In this document: positions 9,816 to 25,458 of the stretch, piece after piece | Numbering within the stretch: position 1 is the stretch's first letter | Layout: each line of letters opens with the position of its first letter | The notes under the pieces: generated by a model | What the model was told of the DNA's origin: nothing | The model's database searches: none | What the model saw: the letters and a program-made list of their open reading frames with translations, nothing else | DNA from: Giardia intestinalis | Lineage: Eukaryota | Direction: 5' to 3' (one strand) | Length of the DNA: 64,000 nucleotides | NCBI GenBank assembly: GCA_000002435.2 | Contig: CM018789.1 | Translations under genes and position numbers: made by a program

Positions 9816-10890
9816 GTAGCATCCACTTAGGTAGTAAACGCGTCACTGTACAGCCTACTGCTCTTTCACGATGCCAGTAGACCCTCAAAGCCCGGTTTTT
9901 CCTAAGATCTCACCCCTTCTATGCAGCGTGAAAGAGTAGAAAATCCAAAAATAAGCAGCGGGACCGCCCGGCATGTCTACCGCTCTTCTGCCCTGGAGCC
10001 AGCAGACGACGGCCCAGATGCCCCCGTTGTGATCGGGACCTGTGTGAGCCTTCCCGGCGGCGCCCCGGCCTGGCTGGCGCTCTAGTCTCCTCAACCAGCT
10101 CTGCGCGATCCGGCCCCCCGCCGAACCCTGTGGGCCACCGTACTTCTCCGTGCCTCAATAGCGTCCTCGTCGCCCGAGACCGGCCGGGACGCCCTGGCCG
10201 CTGCAGGAGAGGCGCGTCGAGCGATGATCCTCGACCGAGGCCGCCCCCAGCTCCATGGCCATCTGAACGTGCCCGCAGTGGCCGTGCCGCGGCAGTGGAT
10301 TAGCCCGAGGGCGACCCGTGCCGCCCGATCTACGACCCCTGTTTTTGGATTTCTGCGAAGCAAGGCCTAGTTCTGTCATAGGGCGGCTATAGTAATGGTT
10401 AGCATAGCCCGATGGATACAGAGCCGGAGAAGACGCGGACCGGATCTTGTGCTAACTGATGGCGTGCCGTCTACTGTCTACAGCGCAGAGGTGATGCGTA
10501 GACGCACCTGCCCCCGCTATAGGTGGTCCTTGCAGTACCAGACCCGGTAGAGTGGGCTGCCGTCAGGAGCCAGCACAGCGGAGGGCGCCATGTGCCGATA
10601 GGAGCGTGCCCGGTCGCCCCTGGTTACACCGTAAGCGACGCAAGGGCGGGTAGGCGCGGGTCCCACTGTAGCGACACGTGCAAGACACAGCCGCGCGTCA
10701 TCAGGGCCTCAGAGAGCACTGGCTATGATACGGAAGGGCTACAGCCAGCCCGTTCCAAAGAAGGGGAGCCACACAGGCCCGAGGATCACGTCTCCGGAGA
10801 AGGGAAGTTCTGTCCCGGTGGCCGAGATAATGAAAGGGCGATAACTGGAGTGCCCGCTGACCTGAGCCTGAACAGCTCGTGGCACGCATG
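7858..10890. repeat. Left arm of a 9-kb inverted repeat (3,033 bp; VSP-1 codons about 30-681 plus 1.07 kb of 3' flank)
   Basis: Every ORF in this interval, real or spurious, has an exactly identical reverse-strand twin at the mirror position x -> 24763-x. Examples are 9464..9826(-) = 14937..15299(+), 10155..10379(-) = 14384..14608(+), and 10523..10951(+) = 13872..14240(-) up to its divergence point. Direct base comparison of 9781-9900 with the reverse complement of 14863-14982 is identical. Outer edge: perfect identity begins at AAGTGCGAGACGGTC (7858). About 45 bp of diverged but alignable sequence precede it (7815-7857). Inner edge: perfect to about 10890, then about 40 bp with mismatches and a 2-bp indel. 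Confidence 0.9.
9833..9839 (+). promoter_or_regulatory. AGTAAAC polyadenylation signal within a conserved VSP 3' block (ACTTAGGTAGTAAAC)
   Basis: It lies 18 nt after the VSP-1 stop. The same block ACTTAGGTAGTRAAY follows VSP-3 (19896-19911) and VSP-4 (minus strand, 61523-61538). The mirror copy for VSP-2 is at 14924-14930 (minus). Confidence 0.8.
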
Positions 10891-13872
10891 CAAGGCGCTC
10901 ACTCTGGGACACAAGCGGACATCCGGTTCACGGCCTCGTGTGCTCCGCTAGCGGTGGCCTCCCCTTTGGTCCTGCTTCATAGCGGGCGAGGGCGGGCCTT
11001 TGTGTTCGTTTTACAAGGCTTCCACCTGACTCGACGGCAGTAGCCGTTGGCGCTCTGGCTCCACTGGCGGTCCTGATTCGGTGAGAGTCTATCTTGGCAA
11101 TAGGAAGTGGATGAGGCCGTGGCTCGCTATGAGGGAGCGTCGTTATTTGTCTTTGGTCGCTGCTTCCCCTGGGAGCGGATATGTCTTCTGTCACTGTGGC
11201 TCTCTGGAACTAGTGATAGTCGCCTCTGTTGCCCCTCGGTGTCCGTCCAACCGTGGTTCTGGGGTAGCACGCCTTCTCAGTCGCAGTCACTCTGGTCCCA
11301 CAGTGGGTCCAGTTGGTGATTGGAAATAGGCTGACAGGCGGCAGTTGCTGGGTATTCATTGGCTGCCACAGGACAGCGAGGGCCGGACAGAACTCTCGGT
11401 GCCCGCGGGGCCCTCCTGGCGTCTCTGGAGTGGGGAGCCGTCCATCCCATAGGTGGTTGAGAACGTCCTTGTGTCCCTGTCTTCTCACTGTGGTATCCCT
11501 CTGGTTGCTGGATGACACCCACGCCCACCGCCTTGCACTTGTGACGGGCTCTGCTCTGGTCGCCGGGCTGGTCTGATCTCCAGCCTGCGTTGCACTCCCC
11601 GAGACACGGAGGCAACGATCACACAGGGCCCCTAGTTGTCCCTCTGCACCAGTGGAGGAGAGCCCCTGTCTGTTGTCTACAATCATCCCATCCTCAGAGA
11701 GCCTGGCCTGGGCGGGCTGCCGTGCGGGCTCTGAGTGCGCCCAGCAGCACAGCCCTAAAGGTAGCCGGGTGGAGTGAATCATCGTGGGATGCACGTAAGG
11801 AGCGCACAGGTCCGGGGCGCCCGAACAGGCTCAGCCCTCGCACCGGCTCCTCCCCGGCCGCCTCAGTCGCGGCGCTAACAGGAAGACGCGTGTCCTGTTC
11901 GACGACCCGGCACACGGACCGACGGCCGGCGAATGCACATGGCAAGGTGGAATAAAAAGTTTGGAACGTCGGCGCTCGCGCGGATCGGGATGCGGCGTTC
12001 TCCAGGCTGGGAGGCCGTGCGTGCGGGCATTACCTTTAACATGTTCCTCACCACGGCCCCAGGCTGATGGGCGGCCGAGGCCTTGCCAGCGTCACGCACG
12101 CCTCTTGCCGGCATTGGGCCGCTCGGGATCGTACATAGGCAGGGCTGCAGAGGCCTTCCGCGGCTCCTGCGGGCAATAGTCTGCCACGGAGAGCACGCCC
12201 AGCTTGGGAGCTCCTCAGGATCACCGTGCAGATCATCGAGACCGGTTCGACGGGCCCCACGTTGAAGGAGGCGCACGGACCGGCGAGCGTGCCGTCTTTG
12301 CAGGCAGGCCCTCGCTGGCCGGGGTGGCGGGGCTCTCCTGTATCTCCGCCGGAGGACGCCCTATCTACTGGCAGCATTTCCACAGTTGCAACGCTACAGG
12401 GACGGGCTGCAGCTCTTCCGCAGGATCTCGTCGGACAGGCAGTTCGGCGTACTCTCACGTGCACTCGCAGGAGCTCCAGGGGCTGCTCCCCGCCCTCGTA
12501 GAATAGCACCCCGCACGCCCCAAAGCCAAATCGAAATGCAGCAGGTGCAGTCGACTCTTCTCGGGTTGTGGCGCTGATCCAATCAGACGCCGCGGCACGC
12601 CCCGAGCAGGCCTCGTCCAGCAGCGGGTGCTCTAGCCGCGCCCCTGAGGCAAGTCTGCTTCTGACCCCGTCCCTGTGCCGACCCCAGCGAGCCCCCGACG
12701 GCTCCGGAGAAGGAGCGCCTTGCGGAGCCCCCTACTGATCCCTCGGTGCAGGAGGATCCCCGGATTACCGACTTGCGTGCGGCAGGCGGCGGAGCACCCC
12801 AGGCCATCCTTACATCTACATGCCCAGCGAGCGCTGTAGCGGGCCGAGATGAAGCCGCGGGCGCCGATGCCGGGGCGCTGGCCACGGAGGCTGCGGCCCT
12901 ACAACCATGCGACCCCTTGGTTCGCGTTTTAGTTTTTGGGGTCCCAAGTTAGCGCCCCCGGAGCAGCACCGGCTGTACACTGTTCACTGCACTCGGTCGG
13001 TCGCATGGTGTAGCAGCTACGGCTCCTCTAATTACGGCGCTTGATGTGTTTACTACTGGGGGTGCTGCTCTCCGTTCTACGGGGTGGCAGGAGTGCTCCC
13101 GCGTGCACGGTAGTACCAGTGGACGCCCCTCAGCTGCCGGGCCGGAGCAGCTCTTGGATGGGTGGACCTATCTTCCTCCGTGCAGCCGTTCCTCGGGCCT
13201 AGTAGACGTGCTTTGCTGTGTCCCGCAGCCCGGATCCTTGCCTTCAGACGCCAGCACGGAACTCTCTAAATTTGTCCTCCTGCGGCGTCCTATGCTACCA
13301 TGCACACTTCGTTTTCATTAAGCCCTTAGGGTTGCAGTCCAGGACTACCGGCCCCCGCATCATCAGATATGGTTGCTGACTGCGGCCGCTTACGCAGTCG
13401 CAGCTGGTTCCGCACTGCCCCTGTATCGGTAGCCTTGGCCTGCATCGCCGGTGTGCGGCCCACTTTGCTCTGCGGGCATACCACACACAGTTACTAGCCT
13501 CGTGATGTGGTGCACCGCTGGGGCAGATAATAGCAGCAGCAATCCTGCAGCCCCGTGTGGTCGTCTGGCAGTGGATGCGAAGGTTTGCAGGCGGGAGCGG
13601 AGGGCCGGGGCTGCTCTTGCTCACGTCACCGGGCGCCGTGGTCAAGGGCTCCGGAGGCACGCCCAGCCCTCTGCTGGACGAGGATCGATGGGCCGCTCAG
13701 AGCCCCGCAAGCTGCGTCCAGGCTGGTATTAGGTGGCCCAATGACGTGGCGACGGGAGCTGTGAGGCGAGACCTGTCGCGCGCCGAGCGTCGGGCCATTG
13801 CTACACCGACTCCCCGAAGGGACACACTCAGCCCGGGGCCGGATGTCCGCTTGTGCCCCAGCGTGAGCGCCT
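10891..13872. other. Unique GC-rich spacer (about 2.98 kb) at the centre of the VSP palindrome. The symmetry axis is at about 12381/12382
   Basis: No mirrored ORFs were found inside it. The spacer is GC-rich, with overlapping short ORFs in all frames and no recognisable coding signal. Confidence 0.7.
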
Positions 13873-16800
13873 CATGCGTGCCACGAGCTGTTCAGGCTCA
13901 GGTCAGCGGGCACTCCAGTTATCGCCCTTTCATTATCTCGGCCACCGGGACAGAACTTCCCTTCTCCGGAGACGTGATCCTCGGGCCTGTGTGGCTCCCC
14001 TTCTTTGGAACGGGCTGGCTGTAGCCCTTCCGTATCATAGCCAGTGCTCTCTGAGGCCCTGATGACGCGCGGCTGTGTCTTGCACGTGTCGCTACAGTGG
14101 GACCCGCGCCTACCCGCCCTTGCGTCGCTTACGGTGTAACCAGGGGCGACCGGGCACGCTCCTATCGGCACATGGCGCCCTCCGCTGTGCTGGCTCCTGA
14201 CGGCAGCCCACTCTACCGGGTCTGGTACTGCAAGGACCACCTATAGCGGGGGCAGGTGCGTCTACGCATCACCTCTGCGCTGTAGACAGTAGACGGCACG
14301 CCATCAGTTAGCACAAGATCCGGTCCGCGTCTTCTCCGGCTCTGTATCCATCGGGCTATGCTAACCATTACTATAGCCGCCCTATGACAGAACTAGGCCT
14401 TGCTTCGCAGAAATCCAAAAACAGGGGTCGTAGATCGGGCGGCACGGGTCGCCCTCGGGCTAATCCACTGCCGCGGCACGGCCACTGCGGGCACGTTCAG
14501 ATGGCCATGGAGCTGGGGGCGGCCTCGGTCGAGGATCATCGCTCGACGCGCCTCTCCTGCAGCGGCCAGGGCGTCCCGGCCGGTCTCGGGCGACGAGGAC
14601 GCTATTGAGGCACGGAGAAGTACGGTGGCCCACAGGGTTCGGCGGGGGGCCGGATCGCGCAGAGCTGGTTGAGGAGACTAGAGCGCCAGCCAGGCCGGGG
14701 CGCCGCCGGGAAGGCTCACACAGGTCCCGATCACAACGGGGGCATCTGGGCCGTCGTCTGCTGGCTCCAGGGCAGAAGAGCGGTAGACATGCCGGGCGGT
14801 CCCGCTGCTTATTTTTGGATTTTCTACTCTTTCACGCTGCATAGAAGGGGTGAGATCTTAGGAAAAACCGGGCTTTGAGGGTCTACTGGCATCGTGAAAG
14901 AGCAGTAGGCTGTACAGTGACGCGTTTACTACCTAAGTGGATGCTACTTACGCCTTCCCCCGACAGATGAACCACCAGCAGAGGAAGCCGACGAGGCCCC
15001 CGACGACGACGATGGCTGCGACGGAGATGCCAGCGATGGCGCCGGTAGAAAGGCCGCTCTTATTAGTGCCAGAAGACACACACTTACCATTGTCTAGACT
15101 GAACCCATCAGCACACTCTTCACATACGTCATCCATCGTGCAGCTCTTGCAGTTAGCATCAGGGCACGCCACACACCCGGTGCCGCTCTTGCCGGGCTTC
15201 TTGCCGTCCTCGCAGGCCGTGCACGTGGCAACCGCCATGCCGCCATCAGCTCGAGCGTCGGGGGCCGTGCACTGGGAGCACCCCTCCACTCCGACGTAGG
15301 CATTACCGCCTGCAATTGTGCCCAATGGGTTGCCACAAGCCAGCACAGATTGTTCGGCACTTATTGCCTTTGGGACAACGAAGAATCTATTGTTGGCATT
15401 GGGTGTATCACAGACACCTGCTGTTGTTGATTTGGAGCACATATAGCTTCCTGGTACTGTATCAATCTTGTAGCAGCCACCCATGTACAGGAAGAACCCG
15501 GCAGCACAGTAGCTGCAAGTATGATCAGTACACCCAGCATTTGTTCCCTTGTTATCAGTACATAGTCCATCAATGGGGAACTTATTGGTCTCTCCACAGT
15601 ATGAACAGTAATAATGCTCCTTTCCATTAGCATCGATCACTATGGCATCGCAGGCTCCAGACGTCCCCCCACACACAGTAGGGTCCTCGCAGGTCTTCAC
15701 ACATGTATAGTCATCGCCTGCATCTCCATTAGACTGCTTCCTGTAGTTCGCTTTACAATCTGTGCACTTAAATCCACCGTTGCTAGAACATAGACTACAG
15801 CCTTCACGACCACCTTTGGCTGTGTCATCACACGGGACGCACTCTTTTGTTCCACCCTCGGCTTTTAGGAAGTACCCGGGAAGGCACCCTGTACAAGTCG
15901 ATATATCATTGGCTGCGGTACACACTGCACAGTTGTTTCCACAAGACTCACAAATGGCGTCAGCACCAGACCCCTTCAGAACATACCCTTCGAGGCATGT
16001 CTTGCATTCAGGCTTGTTAGCTCCATTCTTAGTACATGTCTTGCACTGCGCTACCCCTTTATTTGGGTCTGACCCGCTGGTATCACTGCATAGCACACAC
16101 ATAGTGTTACCGTCATCTTTAAAGTGATTCTCATCCACACATTCGGATGCAACCGTCACGCACGTTGTGGCGCCGTCGATGGCTGTCTTCACCTTCTTAC
16201 TGTTACCACAGGCTGTGCACTTTGGGCCCCCAGTTGCCGGGTTGTACTCACACGTGGTGCAATCAGTTATTGCAGAATCCTTGCATGTCCTTGTCACTGG
16301 ATCAGCATAAGTGTTTCCATTACAACTACCAGCATCTACGCAAGTGTTAGTATCGGTCTTCAGGTACTTTCCAGCCTTACAAGATGTGCACTGATTATTT
16401 GCTGCGCCACTGCAAGTAGCACAATCGTCATGACACTTTGTGCATGGACCGGACCCATAAAAGCCAGCCTTGCAGGCAGTGCACGCGGCTGCTCCTGTAT
16501 TGCCACCTGGCGCCGTGCACTTGAGACAATTCTCCACTCCCATGACCCCGTTTCTATCTGTAGCATCGGAGCACAGGATGCACTCGTTACCAGGAGTCAC
16601 TGTTGCAGCCGGGTTCTTGAACAGGCCGTTCTTTGTATTACAAGTAGTACATACTCCATTACTGGCTGCTGTGCAGACTTCAGACCACAGGCTCGTCTTG
16701 TAGCACCCGCCCATGAAGAGGAAGTACCCGTCGCCGCACTTCTCGCAGGTTGCTGTCATCTTGTCGAGAGCAGCCCCGTCTGCTTTGGTGCACCCGGCCG

Positions 16801-16905
16801 CCGCGGCCTGGATGGAGCCGAAGGGTCGGCAGAAGCCGTCGACCGGGACGCCTCCGACCTTGCACTCGGTACAAATCTCGGCTGACCCGACCGTCTCGCA
16901 CTTAT
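13873..16905. repeat. Right arm of the inverted repeat (mirror of 7858-10890; VSP-2 codons about 30-681 plus 3' flank)
   Basis: See the left arm. Coordinates map as x -> 24763-x. Diverged homology continues to about 16950. Confidence 0.9.
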
Positions 16906-16993
16906 TGACCTGACAGGTCACTATGTGGTCTCCGTCTTGCTGACAAGGTGCTGCAAAAGAACTCACCACAATATAAAAGGCTGTTAATAACAT
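14948..16993 (-). CDS. Variant-specific surface protein (VSP-2). The mature region is identical to VSP-1, but it has its own 5' end and signal peptide
   Basis: From ...KCETVGSAEICTECK to the CRGKA* tail the protein is identical to VSP-1. The track start at 17035 is a GTG. The first ATG is at 16993-16991 and gives the signal peptide MLLTAFYIVVSSFA. That ATG lies in TCAATGTT. The N-terminal 30 codons and the upstream DNA differ from VSP-1. Confidence 0.92.
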   Translation of the reverse strand: MLLTAFYIVVSSFAAPCQQDGDHIVTCQVNKCETVGSAEICTECKVGGVPVDGFCRPFGSIQAAAAGCTKADGAALDKMTATCEKCGDGYFLFMGGCYKTSLWSEVCTAASNGVCTTCNTKNGLFKNPAATVTPGNECILCSDATDRNGVMGVENCLKCTAPGGNTGAAACTACKAGFYGSGPCTKCHDDCATCSGAANNQCTSCKAGKYLKTDTNTCVDAGSCNGNTYADPVTRTCKDSAITDCTTCEYNPATGGPKCTACGNSKKVKTAIDGATTCVTVASECVDENHFKDDGNTMCVLCSDTSGSDPNKGVAQCKTCTKNGANKPECKTCLEGYVLKGSGADAICESCGNNCAVCTAANDISTCTGCLPGYFLKAEGGTKECVPCDDTAKGGREGCSLCSSNGGFKCTDCKANYRKQSNGDAGDDYTCVKTCEDPTVCGGTSGACDAIVIDANGKEHYYCSYCGETNKFPIDGLCTDNKGTNAGCTDHTCSYCAAGFFLYMGGCYKIDTVPGSYMCSKSTTAGVCDTPNANNRFFVVPKAISAEQSVLACGNPLGTIAGGNAYVGVEGCSQCTAPDARADGGMAVATCTACEDGKKPGKSGTGCVACPDANCKSCTMDDVCEECADGFSLDNGKCVSSGTNKSGLSTGAIAGISVAAIVVVGGLVGFLCWWFICRGKA

Positions 16994-18271
16994 TGAGGCC
17001 CATCGAGGCACTGCTAGCGTAAGCAGACATTTCACCAGTGACTCTATTCTCTAAGTAGCCATTCAGTAACGCACTTGTTAGATATCGCGTCAAAGATGCC
17101 AAAGACCCAAAGAGCTGATCCGGTGCCAACCTTCCCGTTACGACAAAACATAGATTTAGCTATCCTCTCAGATAGCACGTAGCCCGCCCTCTGGCCAGCT
17201 AGTTGAGGACTAGCCTTGCTAGGAGAGTTTCGCGCACAAGAGCATTTCATTGATGGCAGTATCAGTGGCCGCCCTGCGTATCGGCTGGATGATCACCCTC
17301 GGCCACGACTCGAGGAACCGGGCACCCGACCAGAGGCATAGCAACGGTTTGGTTTGTCTACGGCCCTACTACCCCTCGCCAGCAGGGAGCGGGCAGCCCG
17401 AATAGCATCAAGCCTCCCCAGTGTTGCCTCTTCTCTAGTGCGCGGAGGTACCCCTCGTGTCTGGGAGACGCTGTGGTGCGGCTGGCTAGAGCCGGTCAAG
17501 TGGGGAACCACCATTTTAGGGGTGCTGGGACATCATTGCGTGCCCGAAGGCTGTCCACCGTAGCGGAACCATCCCAGATAGGAACAGGTGAGGCACCAGT
17601 TCCTTTAGAGGGGCCTGCGACCGGCGAAGGACGGTCTCTAAAGTGGTCAGTAGGGCCCTTCAGTGCGTGGGAGTCGACAGGGGGCGGGTTCACCAATAGT
17701 CTGTGGTGCAAGCGGGTTGGGTCGTATGACAGACGGCGTCCCTGAGCAGGGGGACAGTCACAGTGCGTCGCGATAGAACGTAGCCATCCTCCACGGGGCA
17801 TCGCTCCTGCCGGGCTTCAACAGTGGAATCTCGGGGGGACAGTGTTCGAGGCATGCACTGGTGACCCGTGGCTCGGGGCTGCTGGACATTGCACGGCTGG
17901 CTCCATCGGGTCGCTGGTCAGGCATTCAGGAGAATCTAGGAGTCCCTTGGCAGACCTTGTGACTGGCACAGCAGGAGAGCTGGTCGCCAGGAAACCCTCA
18001 CATCACAGCGAAGAGCGAAACATGACCGCCGTGTAGCCGTTACTATGGTATGCCTTGCAACACAAGGGAGGAAGCTTACATCGATCGGTCCGTTTCACAG
18101 CCGGCCAGTCACACGAAGGTGGAATCAGCACGGCCCCACCTCTCAACGCAGGCCCACATGAAGGGTAATCTCTGTCAGTGTGTCATACAGCATAGGCAAG
18201 CGTCATGAAAGGGTATAAGCGCGGTAAGTGGAGCTGCCATAACCTTGCGTGACAGGGCTGCGCGGGCCGCA
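16994..18271. promoter_or_regulatory. Divergent (head-to-head) intergenic region shared by VSP-2 and VSP-3, about 1.28 kb and GC-rich
   Basis: VSP-2 starts at 16993 on the minus strand and VSP-3 starts at 18272 on the plus strand. Only short spurious ORFs lie between them. Housekeeping divergent pairs in this window are only 18-56 bp apart. Confidence 0.5.
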
Positions 18272-19894
18272 ATGTTCTATGCATTTTTGCTGACCGGTCT
18301 CGCACTCGAGCTAGTACGGGCAGCGCAAGCCGGAGACGAATGCGAAGAGGTAGCTAGCAGTGAGCCCAACACTTGCAAGGCCTGTAGCGCCGTCGTCAAC
18401 GGCAAGAAATACTGCTCGCAGTGCAACGGCGGTGGGTCTCAATCTGCCCCAACGGACGGAGTGTGCTCAGCAGACAATAACGAGTGTACCCGGAAGCAAG
18501 ATGGGAAGTGCACACAGTGCGCTAATAAGTCCTTCATGTACAAGGGCGGATGCTACAAGGATAGCCAGGCACCTGGCAACACGATGTGTGAAACAGCAAA
18601 TGCTGGAGTGTGCACACAGGCTAAGGAAGGATACTTCCTGCCGCCGGGCACTGATAACGCACACGACTCGGTTGTTTCGTGCGGGGATACAACGGGCGTG
18701 ACGCTTACTGGCGATAAGAAGTACACGGGCGTGGCCGAGTGCGTCACCTGTACTCAGCCAGGGCAACTATCAATTGGTGGCACTAAGGCCGCCATATGCA
18801 CCAAATGTGCCGCAGACCTCTACTTGAAAATAGATAGAGGCGTTATGGAGTGCGTCGCGGAATCAGGATGCGGCGAGGGCTTCTTCCCGACAATCGTCGA
18901 CGGTGTTAAGAAGTGTGCTGGCTGTAGTGAAGCTGGAAGCGGTGGCATAGAAGACTGCGAACTATGCATACCTAGAGCACCTGCTCCTGAAGCAGGAGTC
19001 AAGGTCACCTGCTCTAAGTGTCATGCTAGTAAGAAGGTCAGCCCCCTCAAGGACGAGTGCATGGACAACTGCCCCGCCGGGACATACGACAAGCAAAACG
19101 TCTGCACCCCCTGCCACTCGTCGTGTGCCAGCTGCCAGACCGACGACAAGGAGACCTCCTGCACGGCCTGCTACCCTGGACACTCCCTTCTGTATGAGGC
19201 CAACGGAGCGACTGGGAGGTGCGTCAAGGAATGCACTGGTGCGTTCATTACCAACTGTGCAGACGGGCAGTGCACGGCTGACGTGGGGGGCGCGAAGTAC
19301 TGTGCCCAGTGCAAGGAGGGATATGCCCCAATCGACGGAGTGTGCACAGCAGTAAAAATTGGGAGAGACGCGAGTGTATGCACAGCTGCAAGCGGGAAGT
19401 GCACGGCGTGCACAGGAGCATACGCCCTCATTTCTGGTGGATGCTATGGTGTGGCGAAGCTTCCTGGAAAGGCTGTCTGCACGGCAGCTAACAATGGAGA
19501 GTGCACTACTTGCGCGAACGGACAACAGCCCAGTGGAAAGGTCTGTCCGACATGTCCAGCTGGCTGCTCAAAATGTACAGGAAGTGCTCCTTCACAGCAG
19601 TGTTCGGAGTGCTTCCCGGGATACTATAAGTCCGGAACAAAGTGCGTAGCATGCGACAAGGATGATGGAAGCATTAAAGGCGTACCAAACTGTCTGAGCT
19701 GCAAGGAGCCAGCCAGTTCTTCCGGGGCTGTTACTTGCTATGTCAAGACAGACGGCACTAACAATGGCGGAAGCATGAACAAGAGCGGCCTTTCTACCGG
19801 CGCCATCGCGGGCATCTCCGTCGCTGTCATCGCTGTCGTGGGGGGTCTCGTGGGCTTCCTCTGCTGGTGGTTCATATGTAGAGGGAAGGCATAG
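18272..19894 (+). CDS. Variant-specific surface protein (VSP-3), 540 aa
   Basis: It is cysteine-rich with CXXC and GGCY motifs and the tail NKSGLSTGAIAGISVAVIAVVGGLVGFLCWWFICRGKA*. The track start (18245) is TTG. The first ATG at 18272 gives the signal peptide MFYAFLLTGLALELVRAAQA and lies in GCAATGTT (18269-18276). Stop TAG at 19892-19894. AGTGAAT poly(A) signal at 19905-19911. Confidence 0.92.
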   Translation: MFYAFLLTGLALELVRAAQAGDECEEVASSEPNTCKACSAVVNGKKYCSQCNGGGSQSAPTDGVCSADNNECTRKQDGKCTQCANKSFMYKGGCYKDSQAPGNTMCETANAGVCTQAKEGYFLPPGTDNAHDSVVSCGDTTGVTLTGDKKYTGVAECVTCTQPGQLSIGGTKAAICTKCAADLYLKIDRGVMECVAESGCGEGFFPTIVDGVKKCAGCSEAGSGGIEDCELCIPRAPAPEAGVKVTCSKCHASKKVSPLKDECMDNCPAGTYDKQNVCTPCHSSCASCQTDDKETSCTACYPGHSLLYEANGATGRCVKECTGAFITNCADGQCTADVGGAKYCAQCKEGYAPIDGVCTAVKIGRDASVCTAASGKCTACTGAYALISGGCYGVAKLPGKAVCTAANNGECTTCANGQQPSGKVCPTCPAGCSKCTGSAPSQQCSECFPGYYKSGTKCVACDKDDGSIKGVPNCLSCKEPASSSGAVTCYVKTDGTNNGGSMNKSGLSTGAIAGISVAVIAVVGGLVGFLCWWFICRGKA

Positions 19895-19911
19895 GTACTT
19901 AGGTAGTGAAT

Positions 19912-19952
19912 ACTATGAGTGATGATAGTGGGGTGATAGTGTGATGATAGTG
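19912..19952 (+). repeat. Short minisatellite, three copies of an 11-12 bp unit (g)TGATGATAGTG, joining the VSP-3 3' UTR to a VSP gene fragment
   Basis: Read directly: tatgaGTGATGATAGTGggGTGATAGTGTGATGATAGTGtgat. Confidence 0.7.
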
Positions 19953-20845
19953 TGATATGCACAAAGGCTAGTGATGGAGTATGCACTACTTGTAAGACAG
20001 ATAACGGCCTGTTCAAGAACCCGGCTGCACCTCAGAAGCCTGGTAATGAGTGCATCCTCTGTCATGATGCCACGGGAGCAGATGGATATATGGGAGTCGA
20101 GGGCTGCGCTACATGCACCAAGTCAGACAGTAATAAGGGGGCAGCCACGTGTACTGCCTGTCAAGCAGGGTACTACAAGGACTCTCAGGCATGTAGCAAG
20201 TGTGATGGTACTTGTCTGACCTGCGATGGAAGTGGTCAGAATCAGTGTACATCGTGCCCAGAGGGGAAGTACTTGAAGGGTGATAAGACTTGCGTAACTA
20301 GTGATCAATGCACGAGCACCGTTTATCCAGACCCAGAGTCTGGAACGTGCAAGGAATGCAGTACGATAGATCAAGCATGTACTACCTGTAAGTACAATGC
20401 GACTGTCAGTAAGCCCCAGTGCACTGCCTGTAATAACAATAAGAAGGTGAAGACGGCCATCGATGGCATCACAACATGCGTCGATATAAGCTCTGGCTGC
20501 GAGGATGCTGATCACTTCAAGGCAGATGGTGATGCTGCGTGTGTCTTGTGCAGCGATACCAGCGGATCAGACCCAAAGAACAAAGGCATTGCTGGCTGTA
20601 AGGCTTGCACGAAGACAGCAAGTGCCAATCCAACCTGCTCGGAGTGCCTGGAGGGATACAAAAGTACCGGAGTTGGTTCAGTAACATGCACCCCCTGTCA
20701 CGCCAACTGTGCCACATGCTCAGCTGAAACTGCCGAGGATAAGTGTCTGACCTGCAAGACTGGGTTCTTCCTCGTTGAAGTTACACAACCGGCAGGAAAG
20801 TGTGTCTCATGTAGTGACACAAACAATGGGGGCATCGATGGATGT
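19952..20845 (+). pseudogene. Truncated VSP gene fragment (a paralogue of the VSP-1/2 mid-region) lacking a signal peptide, transmembrane segment and CRGKA tail
   Basis: The ORF 19952..21046 starts at GTG with no ATG or signal peptide. Residues about 1-297 align with VSP-1 residues about 115-410. For example CTKASDGVCTTCKTDNGLFKNPAAPQKPGNECILCHDATG matches CTAASNGVCTTCNTKNGLFKNPAATVTPGNECILCSDATD, and ...KKVKTAIDGITTCV... matches ...KKVKTAIDGATTCV.... Homology ends at ...GIDGCV (about 20845). The remaining 67 codons are unrelated and end without TM or CRGKA. Confidence 0.75.
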
Positions 20846-21247
20846 GTGGATACCTTACAGCATCACACCCGTCCAACTCAGCCATGCACAGGAGTCCCAT
20901 TCTTCCCCCAGGATCTGGTCCAGTGCTCAGCTGGTTCGGATGCCCTACCGCACCTTGTTGGAGACTGCATTGAAGCTACTGATCCGGCGGTGCTCTGGAC
21001 TCACTACCTACCATCAGATTGTCTTTGTTTTCGCATATTTACATAGTTGATGGCCATGGTCTTTCTCCGTTGTCCATTGAGGAATGAGACAATCAAATGA
21101 TACTTGATATGAACCTTAAAGTGTTTCATGTGAATTTCTGAATGGTTGTCTTGTTCTGCTATTAGCGAGTATATCATCTAATGCCCTTCAAAGAGCTCTT
21201 CGCATACAACAGCTGATAGGAAGTGTATACCAAAATACAAAGTTTAC

Positions 21248-22597
21248 ATGTCTGAACGCTACACCTCTTTGGCTCCAGCATATGCTGTGTATTACGAGAA
21301 CTATTACCCATATGAAGAAATTGTTGAGTGGCTCACGTACCATGGAAGCGTCCTCACTCAAAGGCGTGAATGGTCTTATGAAATAATCACAGCCACCGAT
21401 GAGACCTTTGTCACCAGATTTCGCGAGATCTCAGATGCAGAACAGCTCAGATCTATACTTCGCTTTTCCTCGAAGACATTAGAGGACTTTAAGCTCAAGC
21501 TTGACATCGGACCCGTTTATACGAGTGATATGAGTCAACGCAAAACGCAACCGGAGTTTGCACCATGTGAGCGAGAGCTTGTGTTCGATATTGACGCAGG
21601 TGACTATGATAGAATTCGTACCTGTTGTGCCGGACCAGCCATGTGTGACAAGTGCTGGCGCTTCATGGAACTGGCAGTCCCTCTCCTTATCCTCTTTTGT
21701 CGTGTTCACGGTTTCAACGACTACTTCTTTGTCTTTTCTGGACGGCGGGGATTGCATTGCTGGATATGCGATGCTCGTGCACGGAAGCTTTCTAAGGACT
21801 CTCGCAAAAGCATGGTCGACGCATTCAATATCATTAGCATAGATACAGGAAGTGTTCTTCGGGAGTCATACGATCACTCCAATTGGCTTTGTCGCTTAAT
21901 TCACGATCACATTTGTATACGTTTCTTTTCCCAAATGCTTGAAGAACAGAATTGGCTTGGTGGAGGTGTTGAAGAGCACTTAGCTAAGTACTCTAAGGAA
22001 AGCCTTCTGACAGAGCTACGACGGGCTGATTCTGCGCTGTTTTCGTCAGCGCCGATCTTTTTCTTTCTTCATATTACCTTATGCATTTACTCTTGCTTAG
22101 TTGCAGGAGGGTATCCTGTTACAACTGGTTCTGCCAAAAATTCAGACGGGCGATTTGCATCTCTTCTTACTACATTCATCGGAAAACTGACTATGATAAC
22201 ATCATCTGCCGCTCGCTGGACTGAGCTTGAGCTACTAATTAAGGATTATGATCCAATTCTTGCTGCCATCAGGGTGTACTACACATATCCCCGATTTGAT
22301 GTAGAGGTCACTCGCGGGATGAACCATCTTCTAAAGATTCCATTCTCGGTTCACTCCAAGTCTCGTAAAATATCAGTCCCCTTTCCACCCGCACCAATCC
22401 TCAAAACCTATTCCATTGATACAGGAGTTCTTCAACTGGGACCCTTAGACACCGATGACTCCTTGCCAAGGTTTCTGCCATCTGATGCACCCACTGTGGA
22501 CGATCTTTTGAGCGGACACACAGAGCACTACTTCAAGTACCGCACATATTTCTCCCGAATTGTTCATCAGGTGACAGCGCCATATGATGGAACTTAA
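21248..22597 (+). CDS. PRI1: DNA primase small (catalytic) subunit
   Basis: ATG at 21248. The blocks ...CERELVFDIDAGDYDRIRTCCAGPAMCDKCW... and ...FVFSGRRGLHCWICD... match eukaryotic PriS motifs (human ...[20 protein letters not shown]...CPKCW... and ...WVYSGRRGVHCWVCD). Confidence 0.9.
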   Translation: MSERYTSLAPAYAVYYENYYPYEEIVEWLTYHGSVLTQRREWSYEIITATDETFVTRFREISDAEQLRSILRFSSKTLEDFKLKLDIGPVYTSDMSQRKTQPEFAPCERELVFDIDAGDYDRIRTCCAGPAMCDKCWRFMELAVPLLILFCRVHGFNDYFFVFSGRRGLHCWICDARARKLSKDSRKSMVDAFNIISIDTGSVLRESYDHSNWLCRLIHDHICIRFFSQMLEEQNWLGGGVEEHLAKYSKESLLTELRRADSALFSSAPIFFFLHITLCIYSCLVAGGYPVTTGSAKNSDGRFASLLTTFIGKLTMITSSAARWTELELLIKDYDPILAAIRVYYTYPRFDVEVTRGMNHLLKIPFSVHSKSRKISVPFPPAPILKTYSIDTGVLQLGPLDTDDSLPRFLPSDAPTVDDLLSGHTEHYFKYRTYFSRIVHQVTAPYDGT

Positions 22598-24684: not shown

Positions 24685-25458
24685 ATGTCACCTTATCAGC
24701 AAACAGACTCTCTGCAAGACGTGATTAGGCGCTATATAGCCGACATGCAAGCACGGGGGCATCCTCCAAAAGATATTCTGAGTCAGGTCCTCCATCTTAC
24801 TTTGGATGTTATCTTTCCAAGTGGGCCATGCTCTACAAGCTCATCAACTGTAGCAGCCCCACAGGCACCTCCACCCACTGCAGAAGAGGCAAAAAAGGCT
24901 TCAGGTCAAGAGGAAGGAACCTCGTCTTCTTTTTATTCTTCCTTTTCTTCTTCTTCGTCTCATCAGCCTACTCCTAGGCCACAGTCTCCCTCGTCTTCCT
25001 CCTCTTCTTCGTCTTCTTCATCCTCCTCATCTTCATCTTCATCTTCATCTTCATCCTCATCTTCCTCGTCCTCGTCCTCATCATCTTCTTCCTCTTCCTC
25101 TTCTTCGTCGAGTTCTCGCTCTAGCTCTCACTCCAGCTCTAGCCACTCTACTACTGATTCTGAAGAGTCTTCTGGGTCTCTAAGTGTGCCATCTCCGGAA
25201 ACATCATCGTCTTCGTCCTCATCGAAGTCCTCACCCAATGAGGTTATAGAGCCATCCATAAAAAGGCAAGAGAGACCGTACTCACACAGTGAGAAGACTA
25301 GTTCGACAGAGCCTCGTCGCGTAACAGAGATGTATCGTGACATGCACAATTCCACTGGTAATAGTTATCGCCAAGCAAAGGCCAAAAGAAAGAGCGGATC
25401 TTTTTCAGGGGGTTCAGTGATAGATCCCAGTGTGCGCTATAGCAAGAGCTTAAGTTGA
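24685..25458 (+). CDS. Hypothetical protein with a poly-serine tract of about 45 residues
   Basis: ATG at 24685, ORF of 257 aa. It is low-complexity and Ser-rich, with no recognisable domain. Confidence 0.55.
   Translation: MSPYQQTDSLQDVIRRYIADMQARGHPPKDILSQVLHLTLDVIFPSGPCSTSSSTVAAPQAPPPTAEEAKKASGQEEGTSSSFYSSFSSSSSHQPTPRPQSPSSSSSSSSSSSSSSSSSSSSSSSSSSSSSSSSSSSSSSSSSSRSSSHSSSSHSTTDSEESSGSLSVPSPETSSSSSSSKSSPNEVIEPSIKRQERPYSHSEKTSSTEPRRVTEMYRDMHNSTGNSYRQAKAKRKSGSFSGGSVIDPSVRYSKSLS
24991..25128 (+). repeat. (TCN)n trinucleotide microsatellite encoding poly-Ser
   Basis: tcgtcttcctcctcttcttcgtcttcttcatcctcctcatcttcatcttcatcttcatcttcatcctcatcttcctcgtcctcgtcctcatcatcttcttcctcttcctcttcttcgtcg, in frame with the CDS. 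Confidence 0.85.

What the first reader, a model, noticed from the sequence alone, without database searches (positions are those of the whole stretch)
19895..21046. Truncated VSP paralogue fused to the 3' UTR of VSP-3 through a (GTGATGATAGTG)3 minisatellite
Only 57 bp after the VSP-3 stop, and just past its poly(A) signal, a second VSP body begins abruptly at the equivalent of VSP-1 residue about 115. It is about 60% identical to VSP-1/2. It runs about 295 codons and then drifts into unrelated sequence, with no signal peptide, TM segment or CRGKA tail. The junction is a short tandem repeat. Its local origin, for example by replication slippage or end-joining, is unknown. The fragment cannot make a surface VSP. 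It could be a relic of ectopic recombination between VSP loci, a source of VSP-homologous RNA, or a donor for conversion.
Basis: seen in the sequence. Interest (0 to 1): 0.5.

Follow-up and report, generated by a model that had tools for sequence, protein, structure and literature searches.

The report
Headless VSP pseudogene in a two-gene array
This is a dead, head-less and tail-less copy of a Giardia surface-antigen (VSP) gene sitting 57 bp behind an intact one, a known arrangement ("linear array") that is already annotated and published, and it still swaps sequence with other VSP genes.

Summary
After the VSP-3 stop (19894) and its extended poly(A) signal (19897-19911) comes a 40-nt spacer with about 3.3 imperfect 11-nt repeats. 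A VSP body of 299 codons follows (19949-20845). It matches VSP-1 residues 118-413 at 55% identity and has no signal peptide, initiator, TM segment or CRGKA tail.

It is not new. The window is Giardia WB chromosome 1. The ORF is GL50803_0013728 ("High cysteine protein"), which Rodriguez-Walker et al. list among pseudogenes; they list its upstream 195 nt as "intergenic83". VSP, ~60 bp, then a promoter-less VSP is the "linear array" of Adam et al. 2010.

Three points are added here:
- The repeat junction is not a local accident. The same junction, PAS-GCTRTACAATGT-(GGTGATAGnn)2-3-GTGATATGCACA, occurs at the syntenic DH locus, in two metagenome arrays and at other WB pseudogenes.
- The 3' truncation point is shared by WB, DH and other assemblage A isolates, with 96-98% identity from 20800 rightwards. 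The interior is only 63% identical, so the relic kept recombining.
- The 63-codon WB tail is read-through of intergenic DNA, because WB has CAG where the other isolates have TAG.

Interest is low.

The parts
18272..19894 (+). VSP-3: the intact first member of the two-unit linear array (540 aa from ATG 18272).
   Evidence: The initiator motif GCAATGTTC lies at 18270. Pfam VSP E=1.7e-85. The TM window scores KD 2.52 and the protein ends in CRGKA.
19897..19911 (+). Extended VSP poly(A) signal ACTTAGGTAGTGAAT belonging to VSP-3.
   Evidence: Regex scan. It matches the published consensus ACUUAGRUAGURAAYRY. Homology to the other VSP 3' ends in the window stops at 19910/19911.
19912..19951 (+). Conserved array spacer of 40 nt. 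It contains the imperfect 11-nt repeats (repeat tract 19921-19956), which run into the first bases of the headless body.
   Evidence: TRF and pattern statistics. It aligns with the spacers of DH, L007, L008 and WB GL50803_0050035. There are three repeat units in WB, L007 and L008, and two in DH.
19949..20845 (+). VSP pseudogene body: 299 codons equivalent to VSP-1 residues 118-413, with neither head nor tail.
   Evidence: BLASTP 55% identity, E=8e-93. Pfam PF03302. 13.4% Cys over the 299-codon body; 17 CXXC in the whole 364-aa ORF; no hydrophobic segment.
20090..21046 (+). Annotated ORF GL50803_0013728 / XP_001704226.1 / KAE8301285.1, named 'High cysteine protein' (318 aa, starting at the only in-frame ATG).
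   Evidence: Exact match to P0001. It is listed in the pseudogene table of Rodriguez-Walker et al., scored as having no signal peptide, TMD or cytoplasmic tail.
19999..20799 (+). Tract replaced by recombination between lineages. WB and DH are 62.9% identical here, with an 87% island at 20160-20275.
   Evidence: Sliding-window identity and alignment A1. A third version is seen in L009.
20800..20845 (+). Last 46 nt of the VSP body, shared by all assemblage A lineages sampled. It ends at the 3' truncation point (after GGIDGC).
   Evidence: 95.7% WB/DH identity over 20800-20846. Nearly identical (one substitution, GGA/GGG) in L001, L002, L009 and L010.
20846..21046 (+). Non-VSP read-through tail of the WB ORF, which is ancestral intergenic DNA upstream of the primase gene. 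Codon 20858-20860 is CAG in WB and TAG in the other isolates.
   Evidence: for the CAG/TAG difference. P15 intergenic DNA aligns from about 20874 at 69% identity.
21248..22597 (+). DNA primase small subunit gene, used as the syntenic anchor.
   Evidence: Exact match to KAE8301286.1. 98.9% identical to DH.

Best explanation
The feature is the promoter-less second unit of a two-member Giardia VSP 'linear array': VSP-3, a 57-nt spacer, then a headless VSP. This unit has also lost its 3' third. It is a pseudogene and makes no surface protein.

Proposed history:
1. Inferred: a head-to-tail duplication in this VSP clade created units that run from the codon equivalent to VSP-2 residue about 128 (S-x-I-C-T-A-A) to about 40 nt past the poly(A) signal. 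The scar of that event is the spacer GCTRTACAATGT-(GGTGATAGnn)n-GTGATATGCACA. Its 10-11-nt repeats look like slipped copies of the first bases of the unit (GGTGATAT).
2. Shown: units with this junction occur at several loci and in several assemblage A isolates.
3. Shown by a shared breakpoint: before the WB (A1) and DH (A2) lineages split, the unit at this locus was cut after ...GGIDGC and joined to the intergenic DNA upstream of the primase gene.
4. Shown by comparison; direction and donors not known: homologous recombination or gene conversion with other VSP sequences later replaced everything left of about 20800 in at least two of three sampled lineages. The truncation point was left untouched.
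5. Shown: in WB a TAG/CAG difference lets the frame read 63 further codons (20858-21046) of intergenic DNA. That produced the annotated 318-aa 'High cysteine protein'.

Inferred present role: none as a protein. At most it is a passive member of the silent VSP sequence pool.
For: - Family and truncation.
- No initiator motif, and a single internal in-frame ATG.
- No poly(A) signal of its own between 19912 and 21247.
- Published framework for linear arrays (about 60 bp intergenic; downstream members lack an Inr; proposed silent cassettes): Adam et al. 2010, PMC2996952.
- Most annotated HCPs are pseudogenes, and GL50803_0013728 and 'intergenic83' are both in the pseudogene table: 10.1101/2022.03.07.483299.
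- Recurrent junction.
- Same layout at the syntenic locus in DH and in two metagenome contigs.
- Identity profile WB versus DH: 98.9% in primase, 97.5% in 20847-21247, 95.7% in 20800-20846 and 62.9% in 19999-20799.
- A third mosaic haplotype in L009.
- TAG in DH, L001, L002, L009 and L010 versus CAG in WB.
- The tail is orthologous to P15 intergenic DNA.
- Published strand-specific RNA-seq gives sense TPM of only 2.0-3.7.
Against: - The VSP frame is open over all 299 codons in both WB and DH despite 37% nucleotide divergence, which could be read as constraint. Conversion from intact donors, plus the short time since the A1/A2 split, explains it equally well.
- Similarity of the 5' junction between WB and DH (spacer 53%, first 47 nt 85%) is no higher than to unrelated array junctions. 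It therefore cannot be shown that the 5' boundary itself is orthologous. The whole block from inside VSP-2 (8064) to 20800 may have been exchanged.
- L009's divergent stretch lies at a short-read contig end.
- Some RNA is detected, with antisense-library TPM of 37-146, so an RNA-level role is not excluded.
- The founding-duplication and slippage steps are inferred from sequence resemblance only.
Confidence: 0.85

Rival explanations
1. The junction and fragment arose locally and uniquely at this site. A break in the VSP-3 3' UTR was repaired by end-joining or replication slippage, which captured a piece of another VSP and created the minisatellite.
For: The repeat is short and imperfect, and lies exactly between the two homology blocks. 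Repeat copy number differs between WB (3 units) and DH (2 units), so slippage does act here.
Against: The same junction sequence, including the flanking GCTRTACAATGT and the exact start GTGATATGCACA, occurs at other places. These are two junctions of a roughly 2-kb tandem unit in L008, a junction in L007, the syntenic DH locus, and WB pseudogenes GL50803_0050035/38. The string 'gtgatagtgatagtg' occurs 16 times and 'ggtgatagtg' 20 times in the published WB pseudogene table, and neither occurs in the table of complete genes.
Confidence: 0.05
2. The ORF is a real gene for a soluble or secreted 'High cysteine protein', as annotated in RefSeq (GL50803_0013728).
For: An open frame of 318 aa from an ATG, annotated in two genome releases. 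The frame is open in WB and DH. Low sense RNA-seq signal of 2.0-3.7 TPM.
Against: - No signal peptide: the first 20 residues from the ATG score KD -0.33.
- No PyAATGTT initiator or AT-rich element before ATG 20090.
- VSP homology continues 141 nt upstream of the ATG to an in-frame stop.
- The C-terminal 63 codons exist only in WB, because the other isolates have TAG there.
- Rodriguez-Walker et al. place such HCPs among pseudogenes.
Confidence: 0.04
3. The fragment is kept because it works at the RNA or DNA level. It might be a source of VSP-homologous sense or antisense RNA feeding the RNAi-type silencing of VSPs, or a dedicated donor cassette whose spacer repeats act as a recombination boundary.
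For: - Antisense reads are recorded for GL50803_0013728 (antisense-library TPM 37-146 versus sense 2.0-3.7).
- The spacer is conserved across loci and isolates.
- The fragment has clearly taken part in recombination.
- Adam et al. proposed that downstream array members may be cassettes.
Against: - Antisense transcription is general for silent VSPs in that dataset, and the sense and antisense TPM are normalised separately.
- Spacer conservation is expected from co-duplication alone.
- The comparison shows the fragment as a recipient or exchanged tract, not as a donor to an expressed gene.
- No DNA rearrangement is known to accompany VSP switching in G. intestinalis (own knowledge; Adam et al. 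call switching epigenetic).
Confidence: 0.06

Closest known systems
Downstream members of G. intestinalis vsp 'linear arrays' (Adam et al. 2010, BMC Genomics 11:424, PMC2996952)
   Same: It lies head-to-tail directly behind a complete VSP, with a 57-nt gap (published mean about 60 bp). The first member has the initiator and the downstream member has none. There is no usable start and an in-frame stop lies upstream. Such members were proposed to be silent, to be possible recombination cassettes, or to be discarded remains.
   Different: Typical array members keep the conserved 3' end (TM, CRGKA and poly(A) signal). This one is also truncated at the 3' side, so it is a body-only relic at the edge of the array next to a housekeeping gene.
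pVSP / former 'High cysteine proteins' reclassified as pseudogenes (Rodriguez-Walker et al. 2022, bioRxiv 10.1101/2022.03.07.483299)
   Same: It is literally one of them. GL50803_0013728 is in their pseudogene table, scored as an ORF with no signal peptide, TMD or cytoplasmic tail. [quoted passage not shown]
   Different: The paper treats the ORF and the upstream piece as two separate entries. In the text read here it does not describe the conserved spacer or the cross-isolate comparison.
psiVSP arrays of Giardia muris (Xu et al. 2020, Microb Genom 6:mgen000402, PMC7641422)
   Same: [quoted passage not shown]
   Different: The G. muris arrays are long (5-23 genes) and lie next to telomeres. 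This is a two-unit array internal to chromosome 1, about 212 kb from the start of the chromosome 1 record.
Silent VSG pseudogene cassettes with upstream 70-bp repeats in Trypanosoma brucei
   Same: An archive of incomplete antigen genes, with a short repeat upstream and a conserved 3' end downstream, and mosaic formation by segmental conversion. This is an analogy from general knowledge.
   Different: No expression-site conversion is known in Giardia. The Giardia repeat is only 2-3 units of 10-11 nt, and nothing here shows that it guides recombination.

Membership tests
Functional VSP (Giardia variant-specific surface protein) | Cys-rich ectodomain with many CXXC motifs and a match to Pfam PF03302 | tested here: met
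   PF03302 E=5.8e-9, above the curated cut-off. 13.4% Cys over the 299-codon body and 17 CXXC in the whole ORF.
Functional VSP (Giardia variant-specific surface protein) | N-terminal signal peptide and a start codon within the PyAATGTT initiator | tested here: not met
   The only PyAATGTT in 18000-21300 is at 18270, which is the VSP-3 start. There is an in-frame stop at 19937 and a single internal ATG at 20090, followed by a hydrophilic sequence.
Functional VSP (Giardia variant-specific surface protein) | C-terminal TM domain, CRGKA tail and extended poly(A) signal | tested here: not met
   The best 19-residue hydrophobicity window scores 0.81. There is no CRGKA. No poly(A) signal motif occurs between 19912 and 21247.
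vsp linear-array downstream member / pVSP | Head-to-tail directly after another vsp, with an intergenic gap of about 60 bp | tested here: met
   57 nt separate the VSP-3 stop from the fragment ORF, which is on the same strand. Definition.
vsp linear-array downstream member / pVSP | Lacks an initiator and a proper start, while the first member of the array has them | tested here: met
vsp linear-array downstream member / pVSP | Shares its inter-unit junction with other arrays | tested here: met
   Alignment A2 of seven junctions, the regex listing, and counts in the published pseudogene table.
vsp linear-array downstream member / pVSP | Keeps the conserved 3' end (CRGKA) | tested here: not met
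   It is truncated after GGIDGC at 20845. It is therefore a doubly truncated relic of such a unit.
High cysteine protein / secreted Cys-rich protein (SCRP) | Signal peptide present and no TM domain | tested here: not met
   It has no TM domain, but it also has no signal peptide. The published table scores the signal peptide as 'N'.
Recombination-boundary repeat (like the T. brucei 70-bp repeat) | Conversion tracts begin at the repeat more often than chance would give | not testable with these tools

The most novel reading that the evidence does not exclude
The conserved 40-nt spacer, with its 2-3 copies of GGTGATAGnn placed exactly between a VSP poly(A) signal and each headless unit, may not be a mere duplication scar. 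It could be a recombination boundary or hotspot. Together with the conserved TM/CRGKA/poly(A) signal end, it would then delimit exchangeable VSP cassettes in assemblage A Giardia, as a functional analogue of the 70-bp repeats of trypanosome VSG cassettes. This locus shows that even a dead unit is overwritten while its outer edge stays fixed.
Probability: 0.08. Interest if true: 0.6.

Novelty: already known. Interest (0 to 1): 0.2.

Why it matters
It matters little as a discovery. The kind of element (a silent, promoter-less VSP copy in a linear array) was described in 2010, and this locus is already in a published pseudogene table.

It is useful for curation:
- GL50803_0013728 should not be carried as a 'High cysteine protein'.
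- The pseudogene starts at about 19949, not at the ATG at 20090.
- Its last 63 codons are intergenic read-through specific to WB.

The locus is also a clean natural marker for how fast VSP sequences turn over. The fixed 3' breakpoint next to a housekeeping gene lets one follow replacement of the VSP body among isolates that differ by only 1-2% elsewhere. The conserved array spacer gives a simple sequence tag for cataloguing headless units genome-wide.

Tried and rejected
- Search for an intact parent: the protein search with the fragment gave, apart from the annotated ORF itself, nothing above 64% identity. Sliding 50-aa windows gave different best relatives at 60-88%, with no near-identical donor.
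- Look-ups of the WB proteins P0001 and P0007 in the contig index found nothing. The chromosome-level WB assembly could therefore not be read outside the window.
- Two JGI metagenome scans, one for the spacer and one for the VSP tail, found no Giardia contigs.
- P0061 turned out to be a paralogous DH locus (L011), not a third syntenic locus.
- One GS-B junction (L013) and one P15 gene (L012) are of other types: a TM-truncated pseudogene followed by a complete VSP, and a frameshifted VSP. Whether the GTGATAG spacer exists outside assemblage A is therefore unknown.
- Rfam found nothing in 17000-22000.
- Intron reading (VSP-3 and the fragment as one spliced gene) was rejected. VSP-3 ends with a complete TM-CRGKA-stop and poly(A) signal, six in-frame stops lie between the two, and I saw none of the Giardia intron motifs as I recall them (own knowledge, not searched for).
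- The literature search for the accession numbers gave no main-text hits. The gene was found only in supplementary tables.

Full report
**What the window is.** The ORFs at 7698-9815 (+), 14948-17035 (-) and 18245-19894 (+) end in ...FLCWWFICRGKA and match Pfam PF03302, the Giardia variant-specific surface protein family. The neighbouring 449-aa ORF (21248-22597) is identical to the DNA primase small subunit of Giardia intestinalis WB (KAE8301286.1). The ORF from ATG 20090 to 21046 is identical to XP_001704226.1 / KAE8301285.1, 'High cysteine protein', on a 1,485,438-bp contig. A published supplementary table places that gene, GL50803_0013728, on NC_051856.1 (chromosome 1). It lists window bases 19895-20089 as NC_051856.1:211894-212089, so the window starts near position 192,000 of chromosome 1.

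**Check of the observation.** VSP-3 really starts at ATG 18272, inside the only PyAATGTT initiator motif found between 18000 and 21300. It stops at 19894. The extended VSP poly(A) signal ACTTAGGTAGTGAAT lies at 19897-19911. Homology of this 3' end to the other VSP 3' ends of the window stops at 19910/19911. Tandem Repeats Finder reports 19921-19956 as 3.3 copies of an 11-nt unit with 88% matches. This is not a perfect 12-mer repeated three times, but the repeat is real: a two-unit pattern occurs only here in the 64 kb, against 0.06 expected by chance.

After an in-frame TAG at 19937, the frame is open from 19952 to 21046. It aligns to VSP-1 residues 118-413 and VSP-2 residues 128-423 at 55% identity, E=8e-93. 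DNA identity is 67% over 19958-20580. VSP homology ends after ...GGIDGC at 20845, and the rest matches no VSP. The product has 13.4% Cys over the 299-codon VSP body and 17 CXXC motifs in the whole ORF, but no hydrophobic stretch (best 19-residue window 0.81, against 2.52 for the VSP-3 TM). It has only one in-frame ATG (20090), which is followed by a hydrophilic sequence. The description stands, with the corrections 55% rather than 60%, 299 codons, and an imperfect 11-nt repeat.

**It is not an assembly error.** The same protein is in the 2007 and 2019 WB assemblies. A short-read contig from another WB-like sample (L003) covers 20704 onwards at 100% identity. Three independent assemblies of another lineage show the same layout: DH (AHGT01000012.1, locus L005) and two metagenome contigs (L001, L002). 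In each, a VSP is followed by a 304-aa headless VSP ORF, then primase.

**What it is.** Adam et al. 2010 (PMC2996952) reported that over half of the WB vsp genes lie in head-to-tail 'linear arrays' with intergenic gaps averaging 60 bp. The first member has the upstream region and initiator. Downstream members lack an initiator and sometimes a start codon, and were proposed to be unexpressed cassettes or discarded remains. VSP-3 plus the fragment is such an array with two members. Rodriguez-Walker et al. (10.1101/2022.03.07.483299) state that most annotated 'High cysteine proteins' lack a signal peptide and are probably pseudogenes. Their pseudogene table contains GL50803_0013728, scored as having no signal peptide, TMD or cytoplasmic tail. 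[quoted passage not shown] Both the kind of element and this particular locus are therefore already on record.

**The junction is a conserved array spacer.** In the same published table, other WB pseudogenes begin with a poly(A) signal followed by the same kind of repeat. GL50803_0050035 and GL50803_0050038 begin gtagtgaatgctgtacaatgtgtgataatgggtgatagt..., and GL50803_0040022 and GL50803_0040023 begin agtgaatgctgtacagtgatagtgatagtg.... Three pseudogenes on NC_051859.1 (GL50803_00114065, 00114277 and 00115085) carry the repeat in their first codons; two of them start MLYSDSDS.... The string 'gtgatagtgatagtg' occurs 16 times and 'ggtgatagtg' 20 times in the pseudogene table. Neither occurs in the table of complete genes.

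I confirmed this independently. Several database homologues start at exactly the same residue as the fragment: P0005, P0013 and P0024 all begin MICTAAS.... Their contigs show the same sequence after the CRGKA stop:

ACTCAGGTAGTGAAT-GCTRTACAATGT-GTGATAATGG-GTGATAGAAG-GTGATAGAGG-GTGATATGCACAGCAGCC

This occurs at two successive junctions of a roughly 2-kb tandem unit in L008, at one junction in L007, and, with one repeat unit fewer, at the syntenic DH locus. The alignment of seven junctions (A2) places the WB spacer in register with them.

The repeat unit GGTGATAGnn resembles the first bases of the headless unit (GGTGATATGC). I therefore infer that it arose by slippage at the scar of the founding tandem duplication and was then copied together with the unit. 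Only the copy number is local. A second subtype of leader keeps about 60 more nucleotides (...GLLFMGGCYKTESQPGS) before the same ICTAAS point.

**History of this locus.** WB and DH are 98.5% identical upstream (window 1-7111). They are 98.9% identical in primase and 97.5% in 20847-21247. In the last 47 nt of the VSP body (20800-20846) identity is 95.7%, and the breakpoint after GGIDGC is the same. In 19999-20799 identity is only 62.9%, with an 87% island at 20160-20275. At the protein level the two positional counterparts are 58% identical, no closer than unrelated paralogues, and each 50-residue window has a different best relative.

A third isolate (L009, SRR3177919) equals DH from about window 20662 to the breakpoint, but carries a third sequence upstream. 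This stretch lies at a contig end and needs long-read confirmation.

The truncation therefore predates the A1/A2 split. Homologous recombination with other VSP copies has since replaced the sequence to its left.

How far left each exchange went cannot be settled. The WB/DH similarity of the spacer (53%) and of the first 47 nt (85%) is no higher than to other array junctions. Upstream, DH has a single short VSP whose head matches the VSP-2 head at 87.8%, where WB has the VSP-2/VSP-1 inverted pair and VSP-3. In P15 (assemblage E) the fragment is absent. Intergenic orthology with WB starts at about 20874 (69% identity), and a separate degenerate VSP 3' remnant lies further upstream.

**The tail.** Codon 20858-20860 is CAG in WB and in the WB-like contig L003. 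It is TAG in DH, L001, L002, L009 and L010. The 63 extra codons of the WB ORF are thus read-through of DNA that is intergenic in every lineage.

**Expression.** In the strand-specific RNA-seq table of Rodriguez-Walker et al., GL50803_0013728 has a sense TPM of 2.0-3.7 and an antisense-library TPM of 37-146 with unique mapping. The two libraries are normalised separately. That is the profile the authors describe for silent VSPs. It does not single the fragment out as an RNA source.

**Verdict.** The proposed local origin of the junction is wrong. The element is an ordinary, already catalogued member of a known class. The conserved spacer and the fixed breakpoint next to a rewritten interior are tidy additions, and they fit the existing view that array members take part in VSP recombination. 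The only reading with real novelty is that the spacer repeat is a functional recombination boundary. Nothing here supports it beyond conservation, which co-duplication also explains.

Noticed in passing
window 7860-10926 and 13839-16903: VSP-2 and VSP-1 form a tail-to-tail inverted repeat of 3,067 bp at 99.87% identity around a 2.9-kb unique centre. The centre has no blastx match to the local VSP set. The two genes differ only in their first ~160 bp. This is the 'inverted pair' pattern of Adam et al. 2010.
   Followed up: partly
window 8064-19778 versus L005 (DH) 8080-8584: DH lacks about 11.7 kb that WB has here (VSP-2 body, VSP-1, VSP-3 head and body). DH instead has one short VSP, whose head matches the VSP-2 head at 87.8% and is joined to a C-terminal part like that of VSP-1/2. 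This looks like a deletion between the two GGCY-motif regions, or an exchange with another array. The locus is a hotspot of structural change between A1 and A2.
   Followed up: partly
L006 (P15, assemblage E) about 1530-1720: A degenerate VSP 3' remnant (...VGFLCWWFICRGKA, stop, ACTTAGGTAGTAAAC) lies on the same strand upstream of the primase gene. It is separated from the primase gene by about 900 bp of 63.5% GC DNA that has no counterpart in WB. The site therefore held VSP material before assemblages A and E split.
   Followed up: partly
homologues P0010, P0017, P0018, P0020, P0029, P0032, P0040, P0044 and others; one of them (P0018) traced to GS-B contig L013: Many VSP-like ORFs from other NCBI Giardia assemblies all begin at one other fixed point (VNDPAGVSIDSLCRP...). 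This suggests that another assemblage has its own conserved entry point for headless units. The single example traced (P0018, in GS-B locus L013) is a TM-truncated pseudogene followed 42 bp later by a complete VSP.
   Followed up: partly
window 24685-25458: An ORF of 257 aa contains a run of about 50 serines (SSSS...). It sits between the Met-tRNA synthetase-like gene and the next gene, and an ORF of similar size is called at the same place in P15 (L006 6414-7142).
   Followed up: no
L009 flank, equivalent to window 20850-21247: The single-base differences in L009's flank are a mixture of WB-type and DH-type states. This isolate is therefore a third assemblage A lineage or a recombinant between A1-like and A2-like chromosomes.
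   Followed up: no
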